A stretch of 63,777 nt of DNA from Verrucomicrobiota bacterium (lineage in GTDB: Bacteria; Verrucomicrobiota; Verrucomicrobiia; Limisphaerales; Palsa-1400). Both the position numbers and the translations under genes were made by a program. The stretch is taken from assembly GCA_049510745.1 (NCBI GenBank), contig JBEKYR010000029.1:1-63777 (forward strand), written 5' to 3'. Every line of letters starts with the position of its first letter. Position 1 is the stretch's first letter. Shown piece after piece: positions 6,360 to 23,984 of this stretch. Below the pieces are notes generated by a model that was not told the DNA's origin, made no database searches, and saw only the letters and a program-made list of their open reading frames with translations.

Positions 6360-6484
6360 GAAGGATGGCCTGCCATCCGTAGCTCGGAACCCGGCGGTCG
6401 GGCCAGCCCTCCTTCGCCAAGGCGCTACGGAGGGCACCATCCTTCGCTCGGAACCGACGGTAGGCGGTTCCGAGCGAAGGATGG
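6360..6484. repeat. Palindromic repeat array between GIY-YIG gene and tmRNA 3' end
   Basis: Perfect 20-bp IR 6437-6456/6465-6484; hairpin gccctcc..ggagggc 6406-6435; imperfect direct copy ccatccgtagctcggaacc near 6374. Confidence 0.8.
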
Positions 6485-6832
6485 TGGAGGCGGCGGGAGT
6501 TGAACCCGCGTCCCTGCCAAATATTCCAGCCGCGACTACATGCTTAGTCAGGTGAGAGTCTCAACCGTTGCATAACGTCCTGACGCGAATCCAACGGCCC
6601 AGCCCGCATGGAATTTTTTCGGCCGGCACCGCGCGGACTCCGGCTCCGGCCTATCCTGCTGTGGCGTTCGTCCCCCGTAGCAGGCGTCCAGGGGCGAACG
6701 TCGCGGCACTTAGGCCGCGAGAGCTAATTCTTGGTTAGCACTTATTTTTGGTCCGATTTTTTACGAGGCCAACGAACCATCCTCGGCATGCCGCCTCTGG
6801 CGCATCTCGCAGGTCGAAACCAGTACGCCCCC
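6482..6832 (-). ncRNA. ssrA: tmRNA (SsrA)
   Basis: 5' GGGGGCGUACUGGUUUCGAC, 3' GGGUUCAACUCCCGCCGCCUCCACCA with Ala-type acceptor stem; tag ORF 6739-6710 encodes ANQELALAA*. Confidence 0.97.
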
Positions 6833-11355: not shown

Positions 11356-11530
11356 GTCGTGCGACAACTACTGCCGGCTTGTTCACCGCTGGTTGCCAGG
11401 CAAATCGCGGTGATTTCCAATGATCCATCAGCGCCACGACCAAAACCTCGATTATGAAAACAGCTTCGCCAGCCAGAAGTTTGGGGTTGAGATTTGGCGG
11501 CAATGGACTAGAACCAATCTCCATGCCATT

Positions 11531-14500
11531 ATGACCGACGGCGATTTTCTTCATGAAGAGCCACCCGCATACGGGAGTGCCGGCAAACCCGCCCCGCTCA
11601 CCGAATATCTGCGCAAACTCGAACGTGCCCTCAAACGCGGCGACGCGACCGAACACACCCATCGCCCCGCGCTCAAGGAACTGATCGAAGCCCTCGACGA
11701 AAACGTCATCGCCACCAACGAACCGAAGCGTTCCGACTGCGGTGCGCCGGATTACGTCGTTTCCCGCAGGCGCGACCAGCTTTCCCTCGGCTACATCGAA
11801 GCCAAGGACATCGGCGCGGACCTGAACGAGATTGAGCGGAGCCAACAGCTCAAGCGCTACCTTGCCTCTCTCCCAAATCTCCTGCTGACTGACTACCTGG
11901 AGTTCCGCTGGTTTGTGGACGGCAAGAAGCGGCAAACCTTCCGCCTCGCCCACCTCGCCCCCAGTGGCAAACTCGCGCCGGTTGCCGCGGATCAACTCGA
12001 ACGCGCCCGCCAGCTCTTGCTCGGTTTTCTTTCGCAAAAACCGGTGGACATTTCCTCCGCCGAGGAACTGGCCCGCCGTCTCGCCAGTCTCACTCACATT
12101 ATCCGCGACATCATCATCCGCGCATTTCTGGCCGGGCAGGCTTCGCAACAGTTGCGCGACTGGCGCGATGCCTTTGCCGCCACCCTTCTGCCCGAACTCG
12201 CGCCGCAAACCGACGCCGGGAAAGAAGCGGAAGCCGTGAGCGAGTTCGCCGATATGTTTGCGCAGACGCTCGCCTACGGTTTGTTCAGCGCCCGCGCCAC
12301 CAGCGGCACCAGCAAATTCACCCGCGAGAAAGCGCAGAAACTTATCCCGCGCACCAACCCCTTTCTCCGCACCTTCTTCGAGCAGATTACCGGCGCGGCG
12401 CTGGACGACGAACCGTTCGCCGGCTTCGTTGAAGATTTAATCCAGACGCTCGATCACGCGGACATGGGACGGGTTATGGAAGACTTTGGCAAACACGGCC
12501 CCCGCCGCGACCCCGTGGTTCATTTCTACGAGACTTTCCTGCAAGCCTACGATCCCAAGCTGCGCGAACTGCGCGGCGTTTATTATACGCCCGAGCCGGT
12601 GGTGAACTACATCGTCCAGAGCATTGACCGCCTCCTGAAAAAAAAGTTCATCATCAAGGCCGGACTCGCCGATCACCAGAAAATTACCGTCAAGCGCAAG
12701 GAAGGCGAAGGCGAGGTCACTGACGAAACGCATCGCGTGCTTATTCTTGACCCCGCCGCAGGCACGGCCACATTTCTCTACACCGTCCTCGATTTCATCC
12801 GTTCACAGTTCAAGACCAGGAAGAATGCCGGCCAGTGGGGCAGTTACGTTCACGAGCATTTGCTACCGCGGCTCTTTGGCTTTGAACTCCTGATGGCTCC
12901 CTATGCCGTGGCGCATTTCAAAATCGGCCTGGCGCTCGCGGCGATGGATGAGGAACCGCTCTTCCGCCAGCAATGGAGCTACGAACCGCAGGGCAGCGAG
13001 CGCGTGAACATTTTCCTCACCAACACGCTGGAGGACTTGGAACACACCGCCGAGCAGCTTGGCCCCCTGCGCGCCTTGAGCGACGAAGCCAATTCCGCCT
13101 ACGAGGTCAAGCAACACAAGCCCGTCCTCGTCATCCTCGGCAATCCGCCTTATTGCGGCCACAGCGCGAACACCGGCGAGTGGATTTCCAAACTCGTCCG
13201 CGATTACTACTTCTGTGACGGCCAGCCGCTCGGCGAGCGGAATCCCAAATGGTTGCAGGACGACTACGTGAAGTTTCTCCGCTGGGGGCAATGGCGCATT
13301 GAGCAGACTGGTCAGGGCGTGCTCGCCTTCATCACCAACCACGGGTACCTTGACAACCCAACCTTTCGCGGCATGAGGCAGAATCTCATGCAGACATTCG
13401 ACGAGATTTACGTCCTCGATTTGCACGGCAATTCGAAGAAGAAGGAAATCGTTCCCGGCACCGGCGAAGCGGATAAGAATGTTTTCGACATCCAGCAAGG
13501 CGTGGCTATTGGCATCTTTGTCAAACTGCCGCCGGACGCGCGGGCGAAAAAGAAAGAGAAGGCTCCCGCCACAGTTCGGCACTGCCATCTGTGGGGCGCC
13601 CAGCGCCAGACGAAATACGACTGGCTGGACCGCAACCAGATTGAAAGCACTGACTGGGCGATGCTTACGCCTGCCGCGCCACACTACCTGTTCATTCCGC
13701 AAGACACCAAGCGGCTCAAGGAATACGAACGGGGCTGGAGGGTCACGGAGATGATGCCCATTCACAGTTTGGGTATCGCGGCCGGACGCGATCATTTCAC
13801 GGTTGCTTTCAGCGGTGAAGAACTTCGCGATAAACTTCAGACATTCCTTGAACTTGACGGCGAAGAAGCAAGACGGCGGTTTGATTTAGGTCCAGATTCA
13901 AGGGATTGGCAGGTCGATCTCGCCCAAGCTGACCTTAAACACGGTAATTGGGATTCGCGCATTACGACAATTCTCTACCGCCCATTCGATCTCCGTGAGA
14001 CCTGTTACACCGGAATCTCCCGTGGATTTCATTGTATGCCGCGGCAAGACGTGATGCGCCACTTCTTGCAAGGGAATCTGAACCTGGGGCTTTCCACGAC
14101 ACGTTCCACGGAAATTCGCCAAGGCTGGACCCATGTATTCGCCACGCAAGAAATAACGCAGTTACACAGCGTCTCGCTCAAAGAGGTTAATTACCTGTTT
14201 CCCCTCTATCTCTATCCAAACGGCAAGCTGCCCGAGGAAGACTTGTTTGCGCAGGAGAATGGCCGTCGCCCCAACTTGAGCGTGGAATTCGTCAAACAGT
14301 TTTGTGAACGACTCAATTGCAGGTTTGTGCCCGATGGATTCGGCCGTCCGTCCCGGCGGGAGGTCGGCCCGGAGTGCATCTTCAATTACGCTTACGCCAT
14401 ATTCCACAGTCCAACTTATCGTGAACGATACGCAGATTTTCTCCGCGCTGACTTTCCACGAGTGCCGCTGACCAGCAATTGGGACCTCTTTGGAGAATTG

Positions 14501-14947
14501 GGGGGCCTTGGCCTGTGGTTGGTGGACTTACACGCACGCGGACAGGGGAAAAACACTCCAGTTGGATTCCCTGTCAAAGGCACGGACGAAGTTCGTGATG
14601 TTCGTTTCCAACCTGTCGCTTCCTTGGTAATTCCCGGTGTAAAACGCATGAAGAGTTCAACCCCATGTGGACAGGTTGAGACGCGGTCTTGGCCCGACAT
14701 TAAAGCGGGCCGCGTCTGGATCAATGACCGGCAGTATTTCGAGCCTGTGCCGGGAGCCGCTTGGAAATTCTCCATCGGCGGCTACCTGCCCGCGCAACGC
14801 TGGCTCAAAGACCGCATCGGCCGCACCCTCGCTTTCGAGGAACAGGCAGAATATCAGCGCATCATCTGGGCCTTGCTCGAAACGCGGCGACTGATGGCTG
14901 AGATCGATGCCAGCATCAAACACTACGGCGGCTGGCCCATGAGGTAA
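11531..14947 (+). CDS. Single-chain restriction-modification enzyme (N6-adenine MTase, type ISP-like C-terminal specificity domain, no helicase; type IIG-like)
   Basis: N-terminal PD..EAK nuclease (GAPDYVV..YIEAKD), GVYYTPEPVV, motif I LDPAAGTATF, motif IV GNPPY, LDLHGN, FSIGGYLPAQRWLKDR. Confidence 0.88.
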   Translation: MTDGDFLHEEPPAYGSAGKPAPLTEYLRKLERALKRGDATEHTHRPALKELIEALDENVIATNEPKRSDCGAPDYVVSRRRDQLSLGYIEAKDIGADLNEIERSQQLKRYLASLPNLLLTDYLEFRWFVDGKKRQTFRLAHLAPSGKLAPVAADQLERARQLLLGFLSQKPVDISSAEELARRLASLTHIIRDIIIRAFLAGQASQQLRDWRDAFAATLLPELAPQTDAGKEAEAVSEFADMFAQTLAYGLFSARATSGTSKFTREKAQKLIPRTNPFLRTFFEQITGAALDDEPFAGFVEDLIQTLDHADMGRVMEDFGKHGPRRDPVVHFYETFLQAYDPKLRELRGVYYTPEPVVNYIVQSIDRLLKKKFIIKAGLADHQKITVKRKEGEGEVTDETHRVLILDPAAGTATFLYTVLDFIRSQFKTRKNAGQWGSYVHEHLLPRLFGFELLMAPYAVAHFKIGLALAAMDEEPLFRQQWSYEPQGSERVNIFLTNTLEDLEHTAEQLGPLRALSDEANSAYEVKQHKPVLVILGNPPYCGHSANTGEWISKLVRDYYFCDGQPLGERNPKWLQDDYVKFLRWGQWRIEQTGQGVLAFITNHGYLDNPTFRGMRQNLMQTFDEIYVLDLHGNSKKKEIVPGTGEADKNVFDIQQGVAIGIFVKLPPDARAKKKEKAPATVRHCHLWGAQRQTKYDWLDRNQIESTDWAMLTPAAPHYLFIPQDTKRLKEYERGWRVTEMMPIHSLGIAAGRDHFTVAFSGEELRDKLQTFLELDGEEARRRFDLGPDSRDWQVDLAQADLKHGNWDSRITTILYRPFDLRETCYTGISRGFHCMPRQDVMRHFLQGNLNLGLSTTRSTEIRQGWTHVFATQEITQLHSVSLKEVNYLFPLYLYPNGKLPEEDLFAQENGRRPNLSVEFVKQFCERLNCRFVPDGFGRPSRREVGPECIFNYAYAIFHSPTYRERYADFLRADFPRVPLTSNWDLFGELGGLGLWLVDLHARGQGKNTPVGFPVKGTDEVRDVRFQPVASLVIPGVKRMKSSTPCGQVETRSWPDIKAGRVWINDRQYFEPVPGAAWKFSIGGYLPAQRWLKDRIGRTLAFEEQAEYQRIIWALLETRRLMAEIDASIKHYGGWPMR

Positions 14948-22124: not shown

Positions 22125-22280
22125 ATGGGCAGACAAACCAATAAAGTTGAAAAGCGCCAGCGCCGCCTCGCCTACATCAAACGCAAAAAAGCCGCCGGCA
22201 GGAAAAAGCCCGCCCCGGCGCCAGCCCCGGCCCCCGCCCCCGCCCCCGCGCCTGCGCCCGCGCCTGCGCCCGCGGCGTGA
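22125..22280 (+). CDS. Small basic protein (51 aa) with (PA)11 tail
   Basis: Own translation MGRQTNKVEKRQRRLAYIKRKKAAGRKK(PA)11A*; below ORF-track cutoff; the PA repeat uses varied synonymous codons. Confidence 0.7.
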   Translation: MGRQTNKVEKRQRRLAYIKRKKAAGRKKPAPAPAPAPAPAPAPAPAPAPAA

Positions 22281-22384
22281 GAAAGGAATCGGGGAATGAG
22301 CGAAGCAAGGAATGGGCGCGGTTTTTGTGTCAATACTAATCTATCCCGGCCCGGCGTTTTTTCTCCGCGGGGGCGGGCGAAAAC

Positions 22385-22527
22385 TTATCCACCGGGGGCG
22401 GCAGCGGAGCGGCATGCCGGGGCGCGGACGGCTCGGGAAAACGCGCCAAAGGCGCGCCAGCATTGAGTTTTTTCGGGTTTTCGGGTTGTGAATAAAATGG
22501 AGCGGCGGTGAATAACCCTGTGGACAA
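22385..22527. promoter_or_regulatory. Cluster of four DnaA-box-like 9-mers
   Basis: TTATCCACC 22385-93, TGTGAATAA 22487-95 (exact TTATNCACA on -), GGTGAATAA 22507-15, TGTGGACAA 22519-27. Confidence 0.6.
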
Positions 22528-22553
22528 CATTTCGTAGGCAAGATACAAAACTC

Positions 22554-22562
22554 TGCTATTAT
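22554..22562 (+). promoter_or_regulatory. Extended -10 promoter for the candidate ncRNA
   Basis: TGcTATTAT (TGn-TATAAT with one mismatch), just upstream of the structured region. Confidence 0.5.
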
Positions 22563-22569
22563 CTGAACA

Positions 22570-23397
22570 GTTCATTGAAAGAGCTGGGATGCAGGCGGCG
22601 GACGCAAGAAAGTCGCCGGTGTTCCAAGGATAATCCCAGGTGACTGGGGAAAGGCTGGGTCAGGCTGGTTGGCTCAACCCCTCTAAGTCCGCTTCGCAAG
22701 AGGCGGAGACCGGAGGCAGGATTCACCAGTTCCTCTGGCGGCGCTCGCACGCTGTCAGTGACGCGAAGCAGGAACTGAGCGGCAAGGACGAAAAAGAAAC
22801 CGTTCTGAGCCGAGTCAAGTAGTTCAAGCCGGTTTCAGGCTTGAGCGAATCGCAGTTACCCAGAGGGTAAACGGTTGCTACTGTGCATCAGCACGGGTCG
22901 GGTGACTCTGGCGGTCTTGGCAACAAGGCCGGCCCAAAGAAAGACGCTGAAAGGCGGGACAAAGTGAGCACTCGGACCGGGAAGGAAACACAGCCTGGGC
23001 AGGGCTTGTAAAACCCTTCCAAGACGCCGGCGATGTCTAAAAACGCACCGCTGGCTTGTGATACAAGGCAACCTGAGAGATAAGAGGCCAGACCCGTGGC
23101 ACTGGGCCAACGCATCGCCAAAAGCGATGGCCGTCCCAGAGCAAACTGGTGAAGACGCGGATCGAAAGTCGCAAACGTGTCTTGACCTGGTTCGTAAGCC
23201 GGCGCTGCAAACGCCAGCTCAAGCGAGCTAAGAGGCCTCACTCAATAATTCAGTGACCGCAAGGCGCTGGACGGCCCTGCTATGAGGCCGAAAATTCCGC
23301 TTGCCGTGGAGAATGGCGTCGGGAAGCTGGCAGCCCCGCAAGGGTGCGCCTAATGTCAGCATGGGAAAGAGAGAGTGGCGAACTCCCAGCCCCCAAT
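22570..23397 (+). ncRNA. Candidate large structured non-coding RNA (about 820 nt), family unassigned
   Basis: No credible ORF; terminal helix 22583-89/23384-90; nested long-range helices; multiple GNRA-capped hairpins with G-U pairs on the + strand; promoter before, terminator after. Confidence 0.75.
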
Positions 23398-23399
23398 TT

Positions 23400-23442
23400 G
23401 CCTCCGTCTGGTCGCAAGACCGGGCGGGGGCTTTTTGTTTTT
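23400..23442 (+). terminator. Intrinsic terminator
   Basis: GCCTCCGTCTGGTC-GCAA-GACCGGGCGGGGGC followed by TTTTTGTTTTT. Confidence 0.85.
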
Positions 23443-23486
23443 CCAATCCGGCCTCTCCCGCTTCGAGCGCAAGAGCAACAGATGCG

Positions 23487-23984
23487 TTATTGCGCGTCCG
23501 CCGCGGCGCGGCAGCGCTCGGCCACCCAGGCGAGGTCTTTCAAAAACTGCTCCCGCTTCCGGTCCGGCCACTCCGCCAGCACTTCGGTTTGCAGGGCGAG
23601 GGCGATATGCCGGGCCGACTCGAATTGCTCCCGCCCCGCCGGCAAAAGGCGAAGCCGGTAGGCCCGCCGGTCCCGCTCGTGCCGCACCCGCGCCATCCAG
23701 CCCAGGCTCTCCATTCGTTCGACCAGCGCGGCAATCGTATTGGGATCGCTGGCAATCAGGTGGGCCAAATCACTCTGCGTCAATCCTTCGGGCTCGTGTT
23801 CCGCCAGGGTGCGCAAGGCGGTGAATTGGTCGGGAGTGATCCCGGTGTGCGCCAGGCGCCGCCGAAATGTCTGGTTGAGGCTGAACCAGGCATGGCGCAG
23901 CAAAATGGGCAGGCGGCGTCGGCCTGGGGCATCGATGGGCGGGGGGCGGGTGGCGGGTTTCGGGGGCGATGGGGGGCGGGCCAT
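23487..23984 (-). CDS. MarR family transcriptional regulator
   Basis: GITPDQFTAL, LTQSDLA, PNTIAALVERME, DRRAYRLRL..GR; divergent from the PQQ operon. Confidence 0.92.
   Translation of the reverse strand: MARPPSPPKPATRPPPIDAPGRRRLPILLRHAWFSLNQTFRRRLAHTGITPDQFTALRTLAEHEPEGLTQSDLAHLIASDPNTIAALVERMESLGWMARVRHERDRRAYRLRLLPAGREQFESARHIALALQTEVLAEWPDRKREQFLKDLAWVAERCRAAADAQ

What the first reader, a model, noticed from the sequence alone, without database searches (positions are those of the whole stretch)
22570..23442. Candidate giant ornate ncRNA (about 820 nt) with its own promoter and terminator
Seen: a 1.2-kb gap with no credible CDS. The 5' and 3' ends pair (GCUGGGA 22583-89 / UCCCAGC 23384-90, plus AUUG/CAAU). 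Two adjacent domain-closing helices follow: CAGGCUG 22661-67 / CAGCCUG 22991-97 and GCAGGGC 22999-23005 / GCCCUGC 23274-80. Nested helices: 22669-76/22806-13, 22727-34/22770-77, 22812-17/22903-08 and 23234-40/23283-89. GNRA-capped hairpins lie at 22635-48 (GUGA) and at 22688-707, 22912-31, 23257-64 and 23335-44 (GCAA). A 10-nt cross-domain complement (22722-31/23144-53) could be a pseudoknot or switch. G-U pairs and GNRA loops both point to the + strand, which has an extended -10 before and a U-tailed terminator after. Known: this size class includes GOLLD (about 800 nt), OLE and ROOL RNAs; I find no RNase P, group I or group II intron signature. Inference: a stand-alone large structural RNA, either a distant GOLLD-like RNA outside a prophage or a new class.
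Basis: partly seen in the sequence, partly recalled or inferred. Interest (0 to 1): 0.92.

Follow-up and report, generated by a model that had tools for sequence, protein, structure and literature searches.

The report
Known MISL RNA gene, rRNA-style leader
The flagged gene-free stretch is a real gene for a large folded non-coding RNA, but it belongs to the already catalogued MISL family of Verrucomicrobiota, whose job is unknown; its start carries a ribosomal-RNA-type signal and DnaA-type binding sites sit in front of its promoter.

Summary
Window 22628-23386 (+) is a full-length match (model 1-751 of 751) to Rfam RF03079, MISL RNA: 589.7 bits against a cut-off of 274.6. So the RNA call is right and the claim of a new or GOLLD-like class is wrong. 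This scan has already reported MISL on other DNA, in at least 16 genomes.

The transcription unit is wider than the Rfam model. It has an extended -10 promoter (22535-22562), an inferred start near 22570, a 58-nt 5' extension and a covarying terminator (23400-23442).

The 5'/3' closing helix fails, because its 5' arm belongs to a local covarying hairpin (22585-22626). All five GNRA hairpins are real.

Three leads from earlier agents held up when tested here:
- The first 12 nt resemble the boxA of relatives' 16S leaders.
- DnaA-box-like 9-mers run at 15-17 per kb upstream, against about 0.3 per kb elsewhere.
- Contigs from three peat and one freshwater metatranscriptome cover the RNA.

The gene is single-copy, lacks conserved neighbours and is restricted to some lineages. 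The function of the mature RNA is still unknown.

The parts
22385..22393 (+). DnaA-box-like 9-mer TTATCCACC (one mismatch to TTATNCACA), about -185 from the RNA start
   Evidence: A + strand box lies between -171 and -187 in 24 of the 27 sequences examined, and the block AAAACTTATCCACC is conserved.
22487..22527 (-). Three DnaA-box-like 9-mers on the minus strand: 22487-95 (perfect TTATTCACA), 22507-15 (TTATTCACC) and 22519-27 (TTGTCCACA). The last one abuts the -35 element.
   Evidence: boxes at -83, -63 and -51 occur in 16, 21 and 19 of 27 sequences. Density is 16.8 per kb upstream, against 0.37 per kb in the rest of the loci and 0.26 per kb in the own genome. An independent set gave 14.6 against 0.25 per kb. 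The same box pairs lie upstream of dnaA in 5 of 5 relatives.
22535..22562 (+). Sigma-70-type promoter: -35 TAGGCA, 16-nt spacer, TG-extended -10 TATTAT
   Evidence: 1 site found, against 0.2 expected. In alignment A1 the T, G, T, A and T of TGnTAnnnT stay fixed while the neighbouring bases vary. TANNNT is present in 58 of 67 further loci and TGNTANNNT in 29 of 67.
22570..22581 (+). boxA-like word GUUCAUUGAAAG at the inferred 5' end of the transcript
   Evidence: The word is nearly invariant in A1. It is present within 2 mismatches in 67 of 68 further loci and exact in 51. The 16S leaders of 5 of 5 relatives carry G[CA]TCATTGAAAA at -129 to -136. The transcription start itself is inferred from the -10 spacing and was not measured.
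22585..22626 (+). 5' hairpin outside the Rfam model (outer stem 22585-91/22620-26)
   Evidence: First 5 pairs: 88.3% paired, with 4 of 5 changing on both sides, on 29 sequences (helix 1). All 7 pairs: 77.8% canonical against 41-54% slid, with 7 of 7 showing compensatory types, on 95 sequences. The inner part is poorly aligned and unresolved.
22628..23386 (+). MISL RNA core (Rfam RF03079, model 1-751)
   Evidence: 589.7 bits against a gathering score of 274.6, E 1.6e-178. In this sequence 159 of 170 mapped pairs are canonical. Covariation is shown.
23400..23442 (+). Intrinsic terminator: 14-bp stem, GCAA loop, U tract
   Evidence: On 95 sequences the stem is 94.4% canonical, with 11 of 14 pairs compensatory, and at least 6 T in the next 10 nt in 93 of 95.

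Best explanation
This is the single-copy chromosomal gene for MISL RNA (Rfam RF03079), a large, highly structured, trans-acting non-coding RNA of certain Verrucomicrobiota.

Shown here:
- Family membership.
- A conserved sigma-70 extended -10 promoter.
- A covarying intrinsic terminator.
- A 58-nt conserved 5' extension that the Rfam model lacks: a boxA-like word followed by a covarying hairpin.
- A conserved array of DnaA-box-like sites from -43 to -190.

Inferred, with my odds:
- The primary transcript runs from about 22570 to about 23442, some 870 nt (0.8).
- The 5' word recruits NusB/NusE, as boxA does on rRNA. This would make transcription of this long untranslated RNA resistant to Rho, or would hold the 5' end at the polymerase to help co-transcriptional folding (0.55).
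- DnaA binds the upstream boxes and ties MISL synthesis to the replication or growth state, acting more likely as an activator because the boxes stop short of the -35 element (0.45).
- The mature RNA is an abundant housekeeping-type scaffold held compact by its many GNRA loops. It would work with proteins or as a self-assembling RNA, rather than as a base-pairing regulator (0.5). Its biochemical job is unknown.
For: Identity:
- Full-length Rfam match, with 159 of 170 consensus pairs canonical in this sequence.
- On 29 sequences, the Rfam structure plus the 5' hairpin and terminator is 90.6% paired. 103 pairs change on both sides, against 47.5 +/- 3.9 in shuffles (0 of 500 as high), and slid controls are 35-45% paired.
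- On 95 sequences, the Rfam pairs are 90.0% canonical, against 36-45% for slid controls.

Stand-alone gene:
- One copy in the own genome and one full copy per positive relative.
- Flanking genes differ among the 28 loci.
- The downstream MarR gene is convergent.

Promoter and terminator.

boxA:
-.
- In G005 the word occurs 8 times. The 6 occurrences other than MISL and the 16S leader all lie inside stop-free frames of 126-537 codons.
- Passages of PMC4807359 say that BoxA binds NusB/E, that BoxA rescues long non-coding inserts from Rho, and that the complex may chiefly aid rRNA maturation by looping.

DnaA boxes.

RNA libraries:
- 20 metatranscriptome runs from 14 studies hold 38-48% of the sampled words.
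- Contigs of 4 runs at 90% likeness or more lie on bins 22582-23427. One 498-nt contig is identical to the window.
Against: - No direct mapping of the 5' or 3' ends exists. Contigs cannot give ends, strand or expression level.
- The own genome has no assembled 16S, so the boxA comparison rests on relatives.
- The own genome also has no detectable dnaA (94% complete), so DnaA is documented only in relatives (5 of 5, 5 of 5).
- The boxA-like 12-mer is not unique to rRNA and MISL: 27 hits in 5 genomes, against 7 for the reversed control.
- Positions of the boxes are less fixed in the wider set. Occupancy is 51, 21, 8 and 29 of 67 at -51, -63, -83 and -185.
- MISL was not found in 12 of 41 genomes of the order. 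Five same-family genomes were also negative by BLAST, one of them 93% complete in 10 contigs. Either the RNA is dispensable or it is often lost in assembly.
- Nothing here bears on the function of the mature RNA.
Confidence: 0.9

Rival explanations
1. This is a new class of giant ornate RNA, or a distant GOLLD-like RNA.
For: Its size, its many GNRA loops and its stand-alone transcription unit resemble GOLLD, ROOL and OLE in kind.
Against: The stretch is a full-length member of an existing Rfam family, well above its cut-off. No GOLLD, ROOL or OLE match appears at E up to 1 in 22300-23700. There is no prophage or tRNA context.
Confidence: 0.02
2. The stretch is a cis-acting leader or riboswitch, a protein-coding gene, or a mobile intron, rather than a free RNA.
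For: ORFs of 60-117 aa can be drawn in it.
Against: It has its own promoter and terminator. The downstream gene is convergent and the neighbours differ between genomes. The longest ORF is not conserved: it is stop-free in 12 of 95 homologues. The gene is single-copy, and no intron family matches.
Confidence: 0.02
3. The RNA is MISL, but the conserved 5' word and the upstream 9-mers are not what they look like. The 5' word could be part of the RNA's own functional core or a processing site. The upstream blocks could bind another regulator or act as an UP-like element.
For: The word differs from the rRNA-leader version at 2 of 12 positions, and similar 12-mers occur in coding DNA. Three of the four window boxes carry a mismatch to TTATNCACA, a consensus I recalled. 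MISL is not linked to dnaA or oriC: the distances are 44 kb, 156 kb and 2.0 Mb.
Against: The word sits at the very start of the transcript in 67 of 68 further loci. Box density is about 50-fold over background in two separately gathered sets. The same tandem boxes lie before dnaA in 5 of 5 relatives.
Confidence: 0.3

Closest known systems
MISL RNA (Rfam RF03079, typed 'Gene; sRNA')
   Same: The match is full-length at 589.7 bits, the consensus helices are kept and covary, and the homologues carry Verrucomicrobiota titles.
   Different: Nothing separates it from the family. The Rfam model simply stops short of the real unit: it lacks the 58-nt 5' extension (boxA-like word and hairpin), the 13-nt 3' linker and the terminator.

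From recall, not checked: the family stems from the Weinberg et al. 2017 survey. That paper's main text does not name MISL, and its supplement could not be read.
GOLLD, ROOL and OLE RNAs (large ornate bacterial RNAs)
   Same: They belong to the same size class, have many stems and tetraloops, and their biochemical function is unknown.
   Different: There is no sequence or structure match. MISL has no prophage or tRNA neighbourhood, whereas the text of PMC5737381 describes GOLLD and ROOL as often lying near tRNAs and in prophages. MISL is a single-copy chromosomal gene with a conserved promoter.
rRNA operon leader boxA / Nus antitermination complex
   Same: A 12-nt word at the RNA's 5' end shares the core UCAUUGAAA with the boxA-like word in relatives' 16S leaders. 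The RNA is long, untranslated and structured, as rRNA is.
   Different: MISL is not part of an rRNA operon. In MISL the hairpin follows the word, whereas in the 16S leaders it precedes it. Binding of NusB/E was not tested.
DnaA-regulated promoters and DnaA-box clusters outside oriC (established for dnaA autoregulation; recalled)
   Same: There are clustered 9-mers close to TTATNCACA just upstream of the -35 element, and the same kind of tandem boxes lie before dnaA in relatives.
   Different: The target here is a non-coding RNA gene, it is not near dnaA, and binding is untested.

Membership tests
MISL RNA (RF03079) | Covariance-model score at or above Rfam's gathering score, over the full model | tested here: met
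   589.7 bits against 274.6, model 1-751 of 751, not truncated.
MISL RNA (RF03079) | Consensus helices formed in this sequence and supported by covariation in homologues | tested here: met
   159 of 170 pairs are canonical. On 29 sequences 90.6% of cells are paired, and 103 pairs change on both sides against 47.5 in shuffles, 0 of 500 as high. On 95 sequences 90.0% are paired.
MISL RNA (RF03079) | Occurrence in Verrucomicrobiota | tested here: met
   76 of 80 loci fetched by a MISL 3' pattern hold the RNA. Most titles read Verrucomicrobiota, Limisphaerales, Pedosphaera or subdivision 3.
GOLLD / ROOL / OLE | Match to the family's covariance model | tested here: not met
   No match at E up to 1 in 22300-23700. 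Only MISL and a sub-threshold ybhL-leader hit on the other strand were found.
Bacterial RNase P RNA | Match to RF00010, being the genome's RNase P RNA | tested here: not met
   The genome has a separate RNase P RNA at C18:76634-77040, 214.3 bits. There is no RNase P match in this region.
boxA (Nus-factor loading site) | Sequence like the lineage's own rRNA-leader boxA, placed early in an untranslated transcript | tested here: met
   GUUCAUUGAAAG compares with G[CA]UCAUUGAAAA in the 16S leaders of 5 of 5 relatives. The word sits at the inferred +1 to +12 and is present in 67 of 68 further loci.
boxA (Nus-factor loading site) | Binding of NusB/NusE and an antitermination effect | not testable with these tools
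   Needs biochemistry or genetics.
DnaA box array | Clustered matches to TTATNCACA (consensus recalled) above background, and use of the same motif at dnaA | tested here: met
   16.8 against 0.37 per kb and 14.6 against 0.25 per kb. Conserved tandem boxes lie upstream of dnaA in 5 of 5 relatives.
DnaA box array | DnaA binding and regulation | not testable with these tools
   dnaA was not even found in this 94%-complete assembly. It is present in 5 of 5 relatives and 5 of 5.

The most novel reading that the evidence does not exclude
MISL is a growth- or replication-coupled housekeeping RNA that Limisphaerales-type Verrucomicrobiota make the way they make rRNA. A DnaA-controlled strong promoter would fire, a boxA at +1 would load the Nus complex, and that complex would shield transcription from Rho and chaperone the folding of an 870-nt RNA. 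The product would then act as the core of a still unknown ribonucleoprotein, RNA-only assembly or ribozyme. DnaA control and Nus loading have, as far as my searches show, not been described in print for any large orphan RNA. The searches were made, and only one listed paper names MISL.
Probability: 0.3. Interest if true: 0.65.

Novelty: already known. Interest (0 to 1): 0.3.

Why it matters
As a discovery it does not matter much. The RNA is in Rfam, and this scan has met it in at least 16 other genomes.

What is worth keeping is practical. MISL is one of the largest orphan bacterial RNAs, and contigs like it occur by the thousand in peat metatranscriptomes. Its true transcription unit is now delimited, and it carries two handles that make its biology testable: a boxA-like 5' word and a DnaA-box array.

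The Rfam model could be extended by about 58 nt at the 5' end.

Tried and rejected
- oriC linkage: rejected. The dnaA-MISL distance is 44 kb in G005, 156 kb in G100 and 2.0 Mb in G191. In the other genomes the two lie on different contigs.
- Conserved synteny: none beyond close kin. An M23 peptidase lies upstream in the window and in 2 of the 28 loci, PALP in 2, an integrase in 2, GH2 in 2, and the rest are all different.
- rRNA leader in the own genome: not possible, because no 16S is assembled.
- dnaA in the own genome: not found.
- Exclusivity of the boxA word: not exclusive. The extra G005 sites sit in long open frames and hit no Rfam family.
- Uncovered flanks in the RNA contigs: bins 22300-22581 and 23428-23700 had no contig in 4 runs. 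Contigs cannot show transcript ends, so this counts only as a weak hint.
- The summed word depths pool many organisms and are not an expression measure.
- Literature: 'MISL RNA' occurs in 3 papers, of which 1 is listed (Ribonanza, passages read; it used a MISL window for chemical mapping). 'MISL'+'GOLLD' gave 0 papers. 'RF03079' and 'MISL motif' gave 0. The three-term search returned nothing relevant.
- The main text of PMC5737381 has no 'MISL', and its supplement zip was unreadable. The origin of the family is therefore stated from recall only, and that supplement may hold the authors' own notes on MISL.
- PMC3177189 gave no passage for the boxA consensus terms I tried.
- The absence of MISL in 12 of 41 order-level genomes cannot be told apart from assembly loss.

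Full report
**What is there**

A cmscan of the whole window against Rfam 15 gives two matches above the curated cut-offs. One is tmRNA at 6482-6832 (-). The other is MISL RNA (RF03079) at 22628-23386 (+), with 589.7 bits against a gathering score of 274.6, E 1.6e-178, model positions 1-751 of 751, not truncated.

A permissive search of 22300-23700 (E up to 1) adds only a sub-threshold ybhL-leader hit on the other strand (22.3 bits against 50). It finds nothing for GOLLD, OLE, ROOL, RNase P or introns. The genome has an ordinary RNase P RNA on another contig.

Earlier agents of this scan reached the same identification on other DNA in at least 16 genomes.

I mapped the Rfam consensus structure onto the window. 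Of 177 model pairs, 170 have both partners present, and 159 of those are canonical.

Of the long-range or nested helices, only 22727-34/22770-77 is an Rfam helix.

I gathered homologues in two rounds:
- 28 loci from 40 relatives of the same order, 76-95.5% identical to the window over the core, plus one divergent locus. These were aligned with 130-nt flanks as A1.
- 68 further full-length loci, from a phylum sample and from a pattern scan of named genomes. Together with the first set these make a 95-sequence MAFFT alignment.

On A1, the Rfam structure plus the 5' hairpin and the terminator gives the following:
- 90.6% of cells are paired, against 84.6% in shuffles.
- 103 pairs change on both sides, against 47.5 +/- 3.9 in shuffles, with 0 of 500 shuffles as high.
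- Controls with the partner slid by 1-3 columns are 35-45% paired.

On the 95 sequences, the 170 Rfam pairs are 90.0% canonical, against 36-45% for slid controls.

Five pairs change on both sides, against 2.8 in shuffles, with 39 of 500 as high.

On 95 sequences the terminal helix 22583-89/23384-90 is 48.9% canonical, inside the slid-control range of 27-54%. The reason is visible in the alignment. The 5' arm varies while the 3' arm (CUCCCAG) is almost invariant. The 5' arm covaries instead with a local partner at 22620-26: UGGGA/UUCCA here, and UGAGA/UCUCA, GGCC/GGCC or AAGG/CCUU elsewhere.

The proposed 10-nt pseudoknot has uncompensated mismatches at its centre. Helix 22812-17/22903-08 stays weakly possible. 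On A1 its first 5 pairs are 93.8% paired, with 2 changing on both sides. Over all 6 pairs on 95 sequences it is 79.5% canonical, with single-sided breaks.

**The transcription unit is wider than the Rfam model**

Conservation runs well upstream of 22628.

- **Promoter.** The only promoter-like site in 22300-23700 is TAGGCA, 16 nt, TATTAT with TG before it, at 22535-22562. Across homologues the T, G, T, A and T of TGnTAnnnT stay fixed while the bases between them vary. TANNNT is found in 58 of 67 further loci and TGNTANNNT in 29 of 67. This puts the start near 22570, which is an inference.
- **5' extension.** The first 12 nt, GUUCAUUGAAAG, are nearly invariant. They are followed by the covarying hairpin 22585-22626: 88.3% paired, with 4 of the first 5 pairs changing on both sides. 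All 7 outer pairs show compensatory types on 95 sequences.
- **Terminator.** After the model end comes a 13-nt conserved linker and then a terminator. It has a 14-bp stem with a GCAA loop (23400-23431) and a U tract. The stem is 94.4% canonical, with 11 of 14 pairs compensatory, and at least 6 T follow in the next 10 nt in 93 of 95 sequences.

The RNA folds at -381.4 kcal/mol, z = -7.5 against shuffles. No ORF is conserved: the 117-aa minus-strand ORF is free of in-frame stops in 12 of 95 homologues.

**rRNA-style leader (a lead from earlier notes, tested here)**

The own assembly has no 16S gene, so I used relatives. In 5 of 5 relatives with an assembled 16S, the leader carries G[CA]TCATTGAAAA at 129-136 nt before the 16S start, just after a hairpin. 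The MISL 5' word shares the core TCATTGAAA with it.

Further counts on the word:
- The exact 12-mer occurs 3 times in the own genome, once at MISL.
- The degenerate word occurs 27 times in five genomes, against 7 for the reversed control, so it is not exclusive.
- In the closed genome G005, the six occurrences other than MISL and the 16S leader all lie inside stop-free frames of 126-537 codons and hit no Rfam family.
- Among 68 further MISL loci, 67 have the word within two mismatches, and 51 have it exactly.

Passages of PMC4807359 state that BoxA binds NusB/NusE, that non-coding RNAs are likely targets of Rho, and that a boxA rescues a reporter carrying a long non-coding insert. They also state that at rRNA the complex may mainly promote correct maturation, through a loop between BoxA-bound NusB/E and the polymerase. 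Either role would suit an 870-nt untranslated, intricately folded RNA. Binding itself is untested.

**DnaA-type boxes (also a lead from earlier notes, tested here)**

I counted 9-mers within one mismatch of TTATNCACA, a consensus I recalled.

| Set | Upstream 200 nt | Comparison |
|---|---|---|
| Window plus 26 loci | 90 boxes in 5,364 nt, 16.8 per kb | 0.37 per kb in the rest of the same loci; 0.26 per kb genome-wide |
| 67 separately gathered loci | 193 boxes in 13,249 nt, 14.6 per kb | 0.25 per kb in the rest of the same loci |

In the first set the boxes sit at conserved places:
- between -171 and -187 on the + strand, in 24 of 27 sequences;
- about -83 on the - strand, in 16 of 27;
- about -63 on the - strand, in 21 of 27;
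- about -51 on the - strand, in 19 of 27.

The conserved blocks of the upstream alignment coincide with these boxes. In the wider set the positions are less fixed. In the window the boxes are at 22385-93, 22487-95, 22507-15 and 22519-27. This is one of the two densest clusters in the assembly.

The same tandem boxes lie upstream of dnaA in 5 of 5 relatives, which fits the known self-regulation of dnaA (recalled). dnaA itself was not found in this 94%-complete assembly, but it is present in all 10 relatives searched.

MISL is not an origin-linked gene. The dnaA-MISL distances are 44 kb, 156 kb and 2.0 Mb in three genomes where both lie on one sequence.

**Distribution and context**

- There is one copy in the own genome.
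- In the order-level sample, 29 of 41 genomes including the own have a match, 28 of them over the cut-off. There is one full copy each, and G005 has an extra 76-nt fragment.
- Five same-family genomes without a match were also negative by BLAST. One of them is 93% complete in 10 contigs. This could mean real loss or assembly loss.
- In an even sample of the phylum at 90% completeness or more, 8 of 150 other genomes have it. They are concentrated in a few families: 6 of 8 in one, and 0 of 15, 0 of 15, 0 of 24 and 0 of 14 in others.
Of the 80 loci fetched, 76 hold MISL. Their titles are mostly Verrucomicrobiota, Limisphaerales, Pedosphaera or 'subdivision 3'. The other 4 are chance matches.
- The neighbours in the window are an M23 peptidase, an unassigned ORF, a convergent MarR gene and PQQ-type propellers. 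Neighbours in the 28 related loci are diverse.

**RNA libraries**

Twenty metatranscriptome runs from 14 studies (peat, soil, wetland, freshwater) hold 38-48% of the sampled words.

I laid the contigs of four runs from four studies on 22300-23700 at 90% likeness or more. They lie on bins 22582-23427. The peat runs gave 1,403, 10,983 and 2,589 pieces. The small freshwater run gave one 498-nt contig identical to the window. These are contigs pooled over many related organisms. They show that MISL-like RNA is present in RNA libraries, but not its ends, strand or level.

**Verdict**

This is a full-length, ordinary member of a known family, so I file it as 'already known'.

The additions are:
- the delimited transcription unit;
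- a 58-nt 5' extension missing from the Rfam model;
- independent confirmation, on this lineage, of the boxA-like leader and the DnaA-box array noted by earlier agents.

The function of the mature RNA remains unknown. My committed guess is an abundant scaffold made rRNA-style, which is an inference and not a result.

Noticed in passing
window 6482-6832 (-): tmRNA gene, full-length Rfam match of 182.8 bits.
   Followed up: no
window 11420-14947 (+): A 1175-aa ORF with a Type ISP C-terminal specificity domain and an N6 methylase domain. It looks like a Type ISP restriction-modification enzyme.
   Followed up: no
window 22813-22816 / 22904-22907: A possible extra junction helix (AGUC/GACU) that is not in the Rfam consensus. 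It is weaker on 95 sequences and absent in the distant families.
   Followed up: partly
window 22388-22408 (-): A terminator-like hairpin on the minus strand overlaps the conserved -185 DnaA-box-like site. Its meaning is unclear.
   Followed up: no
window 22200-22280: A very GC-rich stretch of short repeats (GCGCCTGCGCCC and CCCCGC units) inside a 51-aa Pro/Ala-rich ORF, just upstream of the MISL control region.
   Followed up: no
L064, L066, L097, L099, L073, L078, L100: Contigs that carry clear MISL genes sit in records titled Bifidobacteriaceae, Bifidobacterium sp., Dongiaceae, Saccharimonadales and Akkermansia muciniphila. These are probably mis-binned or mislabelled Verrucomicrobiota contigs.
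   Followed up: no
G005:C1:3154355-3154430 (L030): A 76-nt fragment matching only MISL model positions 674-750 (40.4 bits) lies 205 kb from that genome's full MISL gene.
   Followed up: no
own genome G000 (85 contigs, 94% complete): Neither a 16S rRNA gene nor a DnaA domain was found in the assembly. Both are probably assembly gaps.
   Followed up: partly
G017, G009, G007, G021, G013: Five same-family genomes have no MISL by Infernal or BLAST, although congeners have it. G017 is 93% complete in 10 contigs and has both 16S and dnaA.
   Followed up: partly
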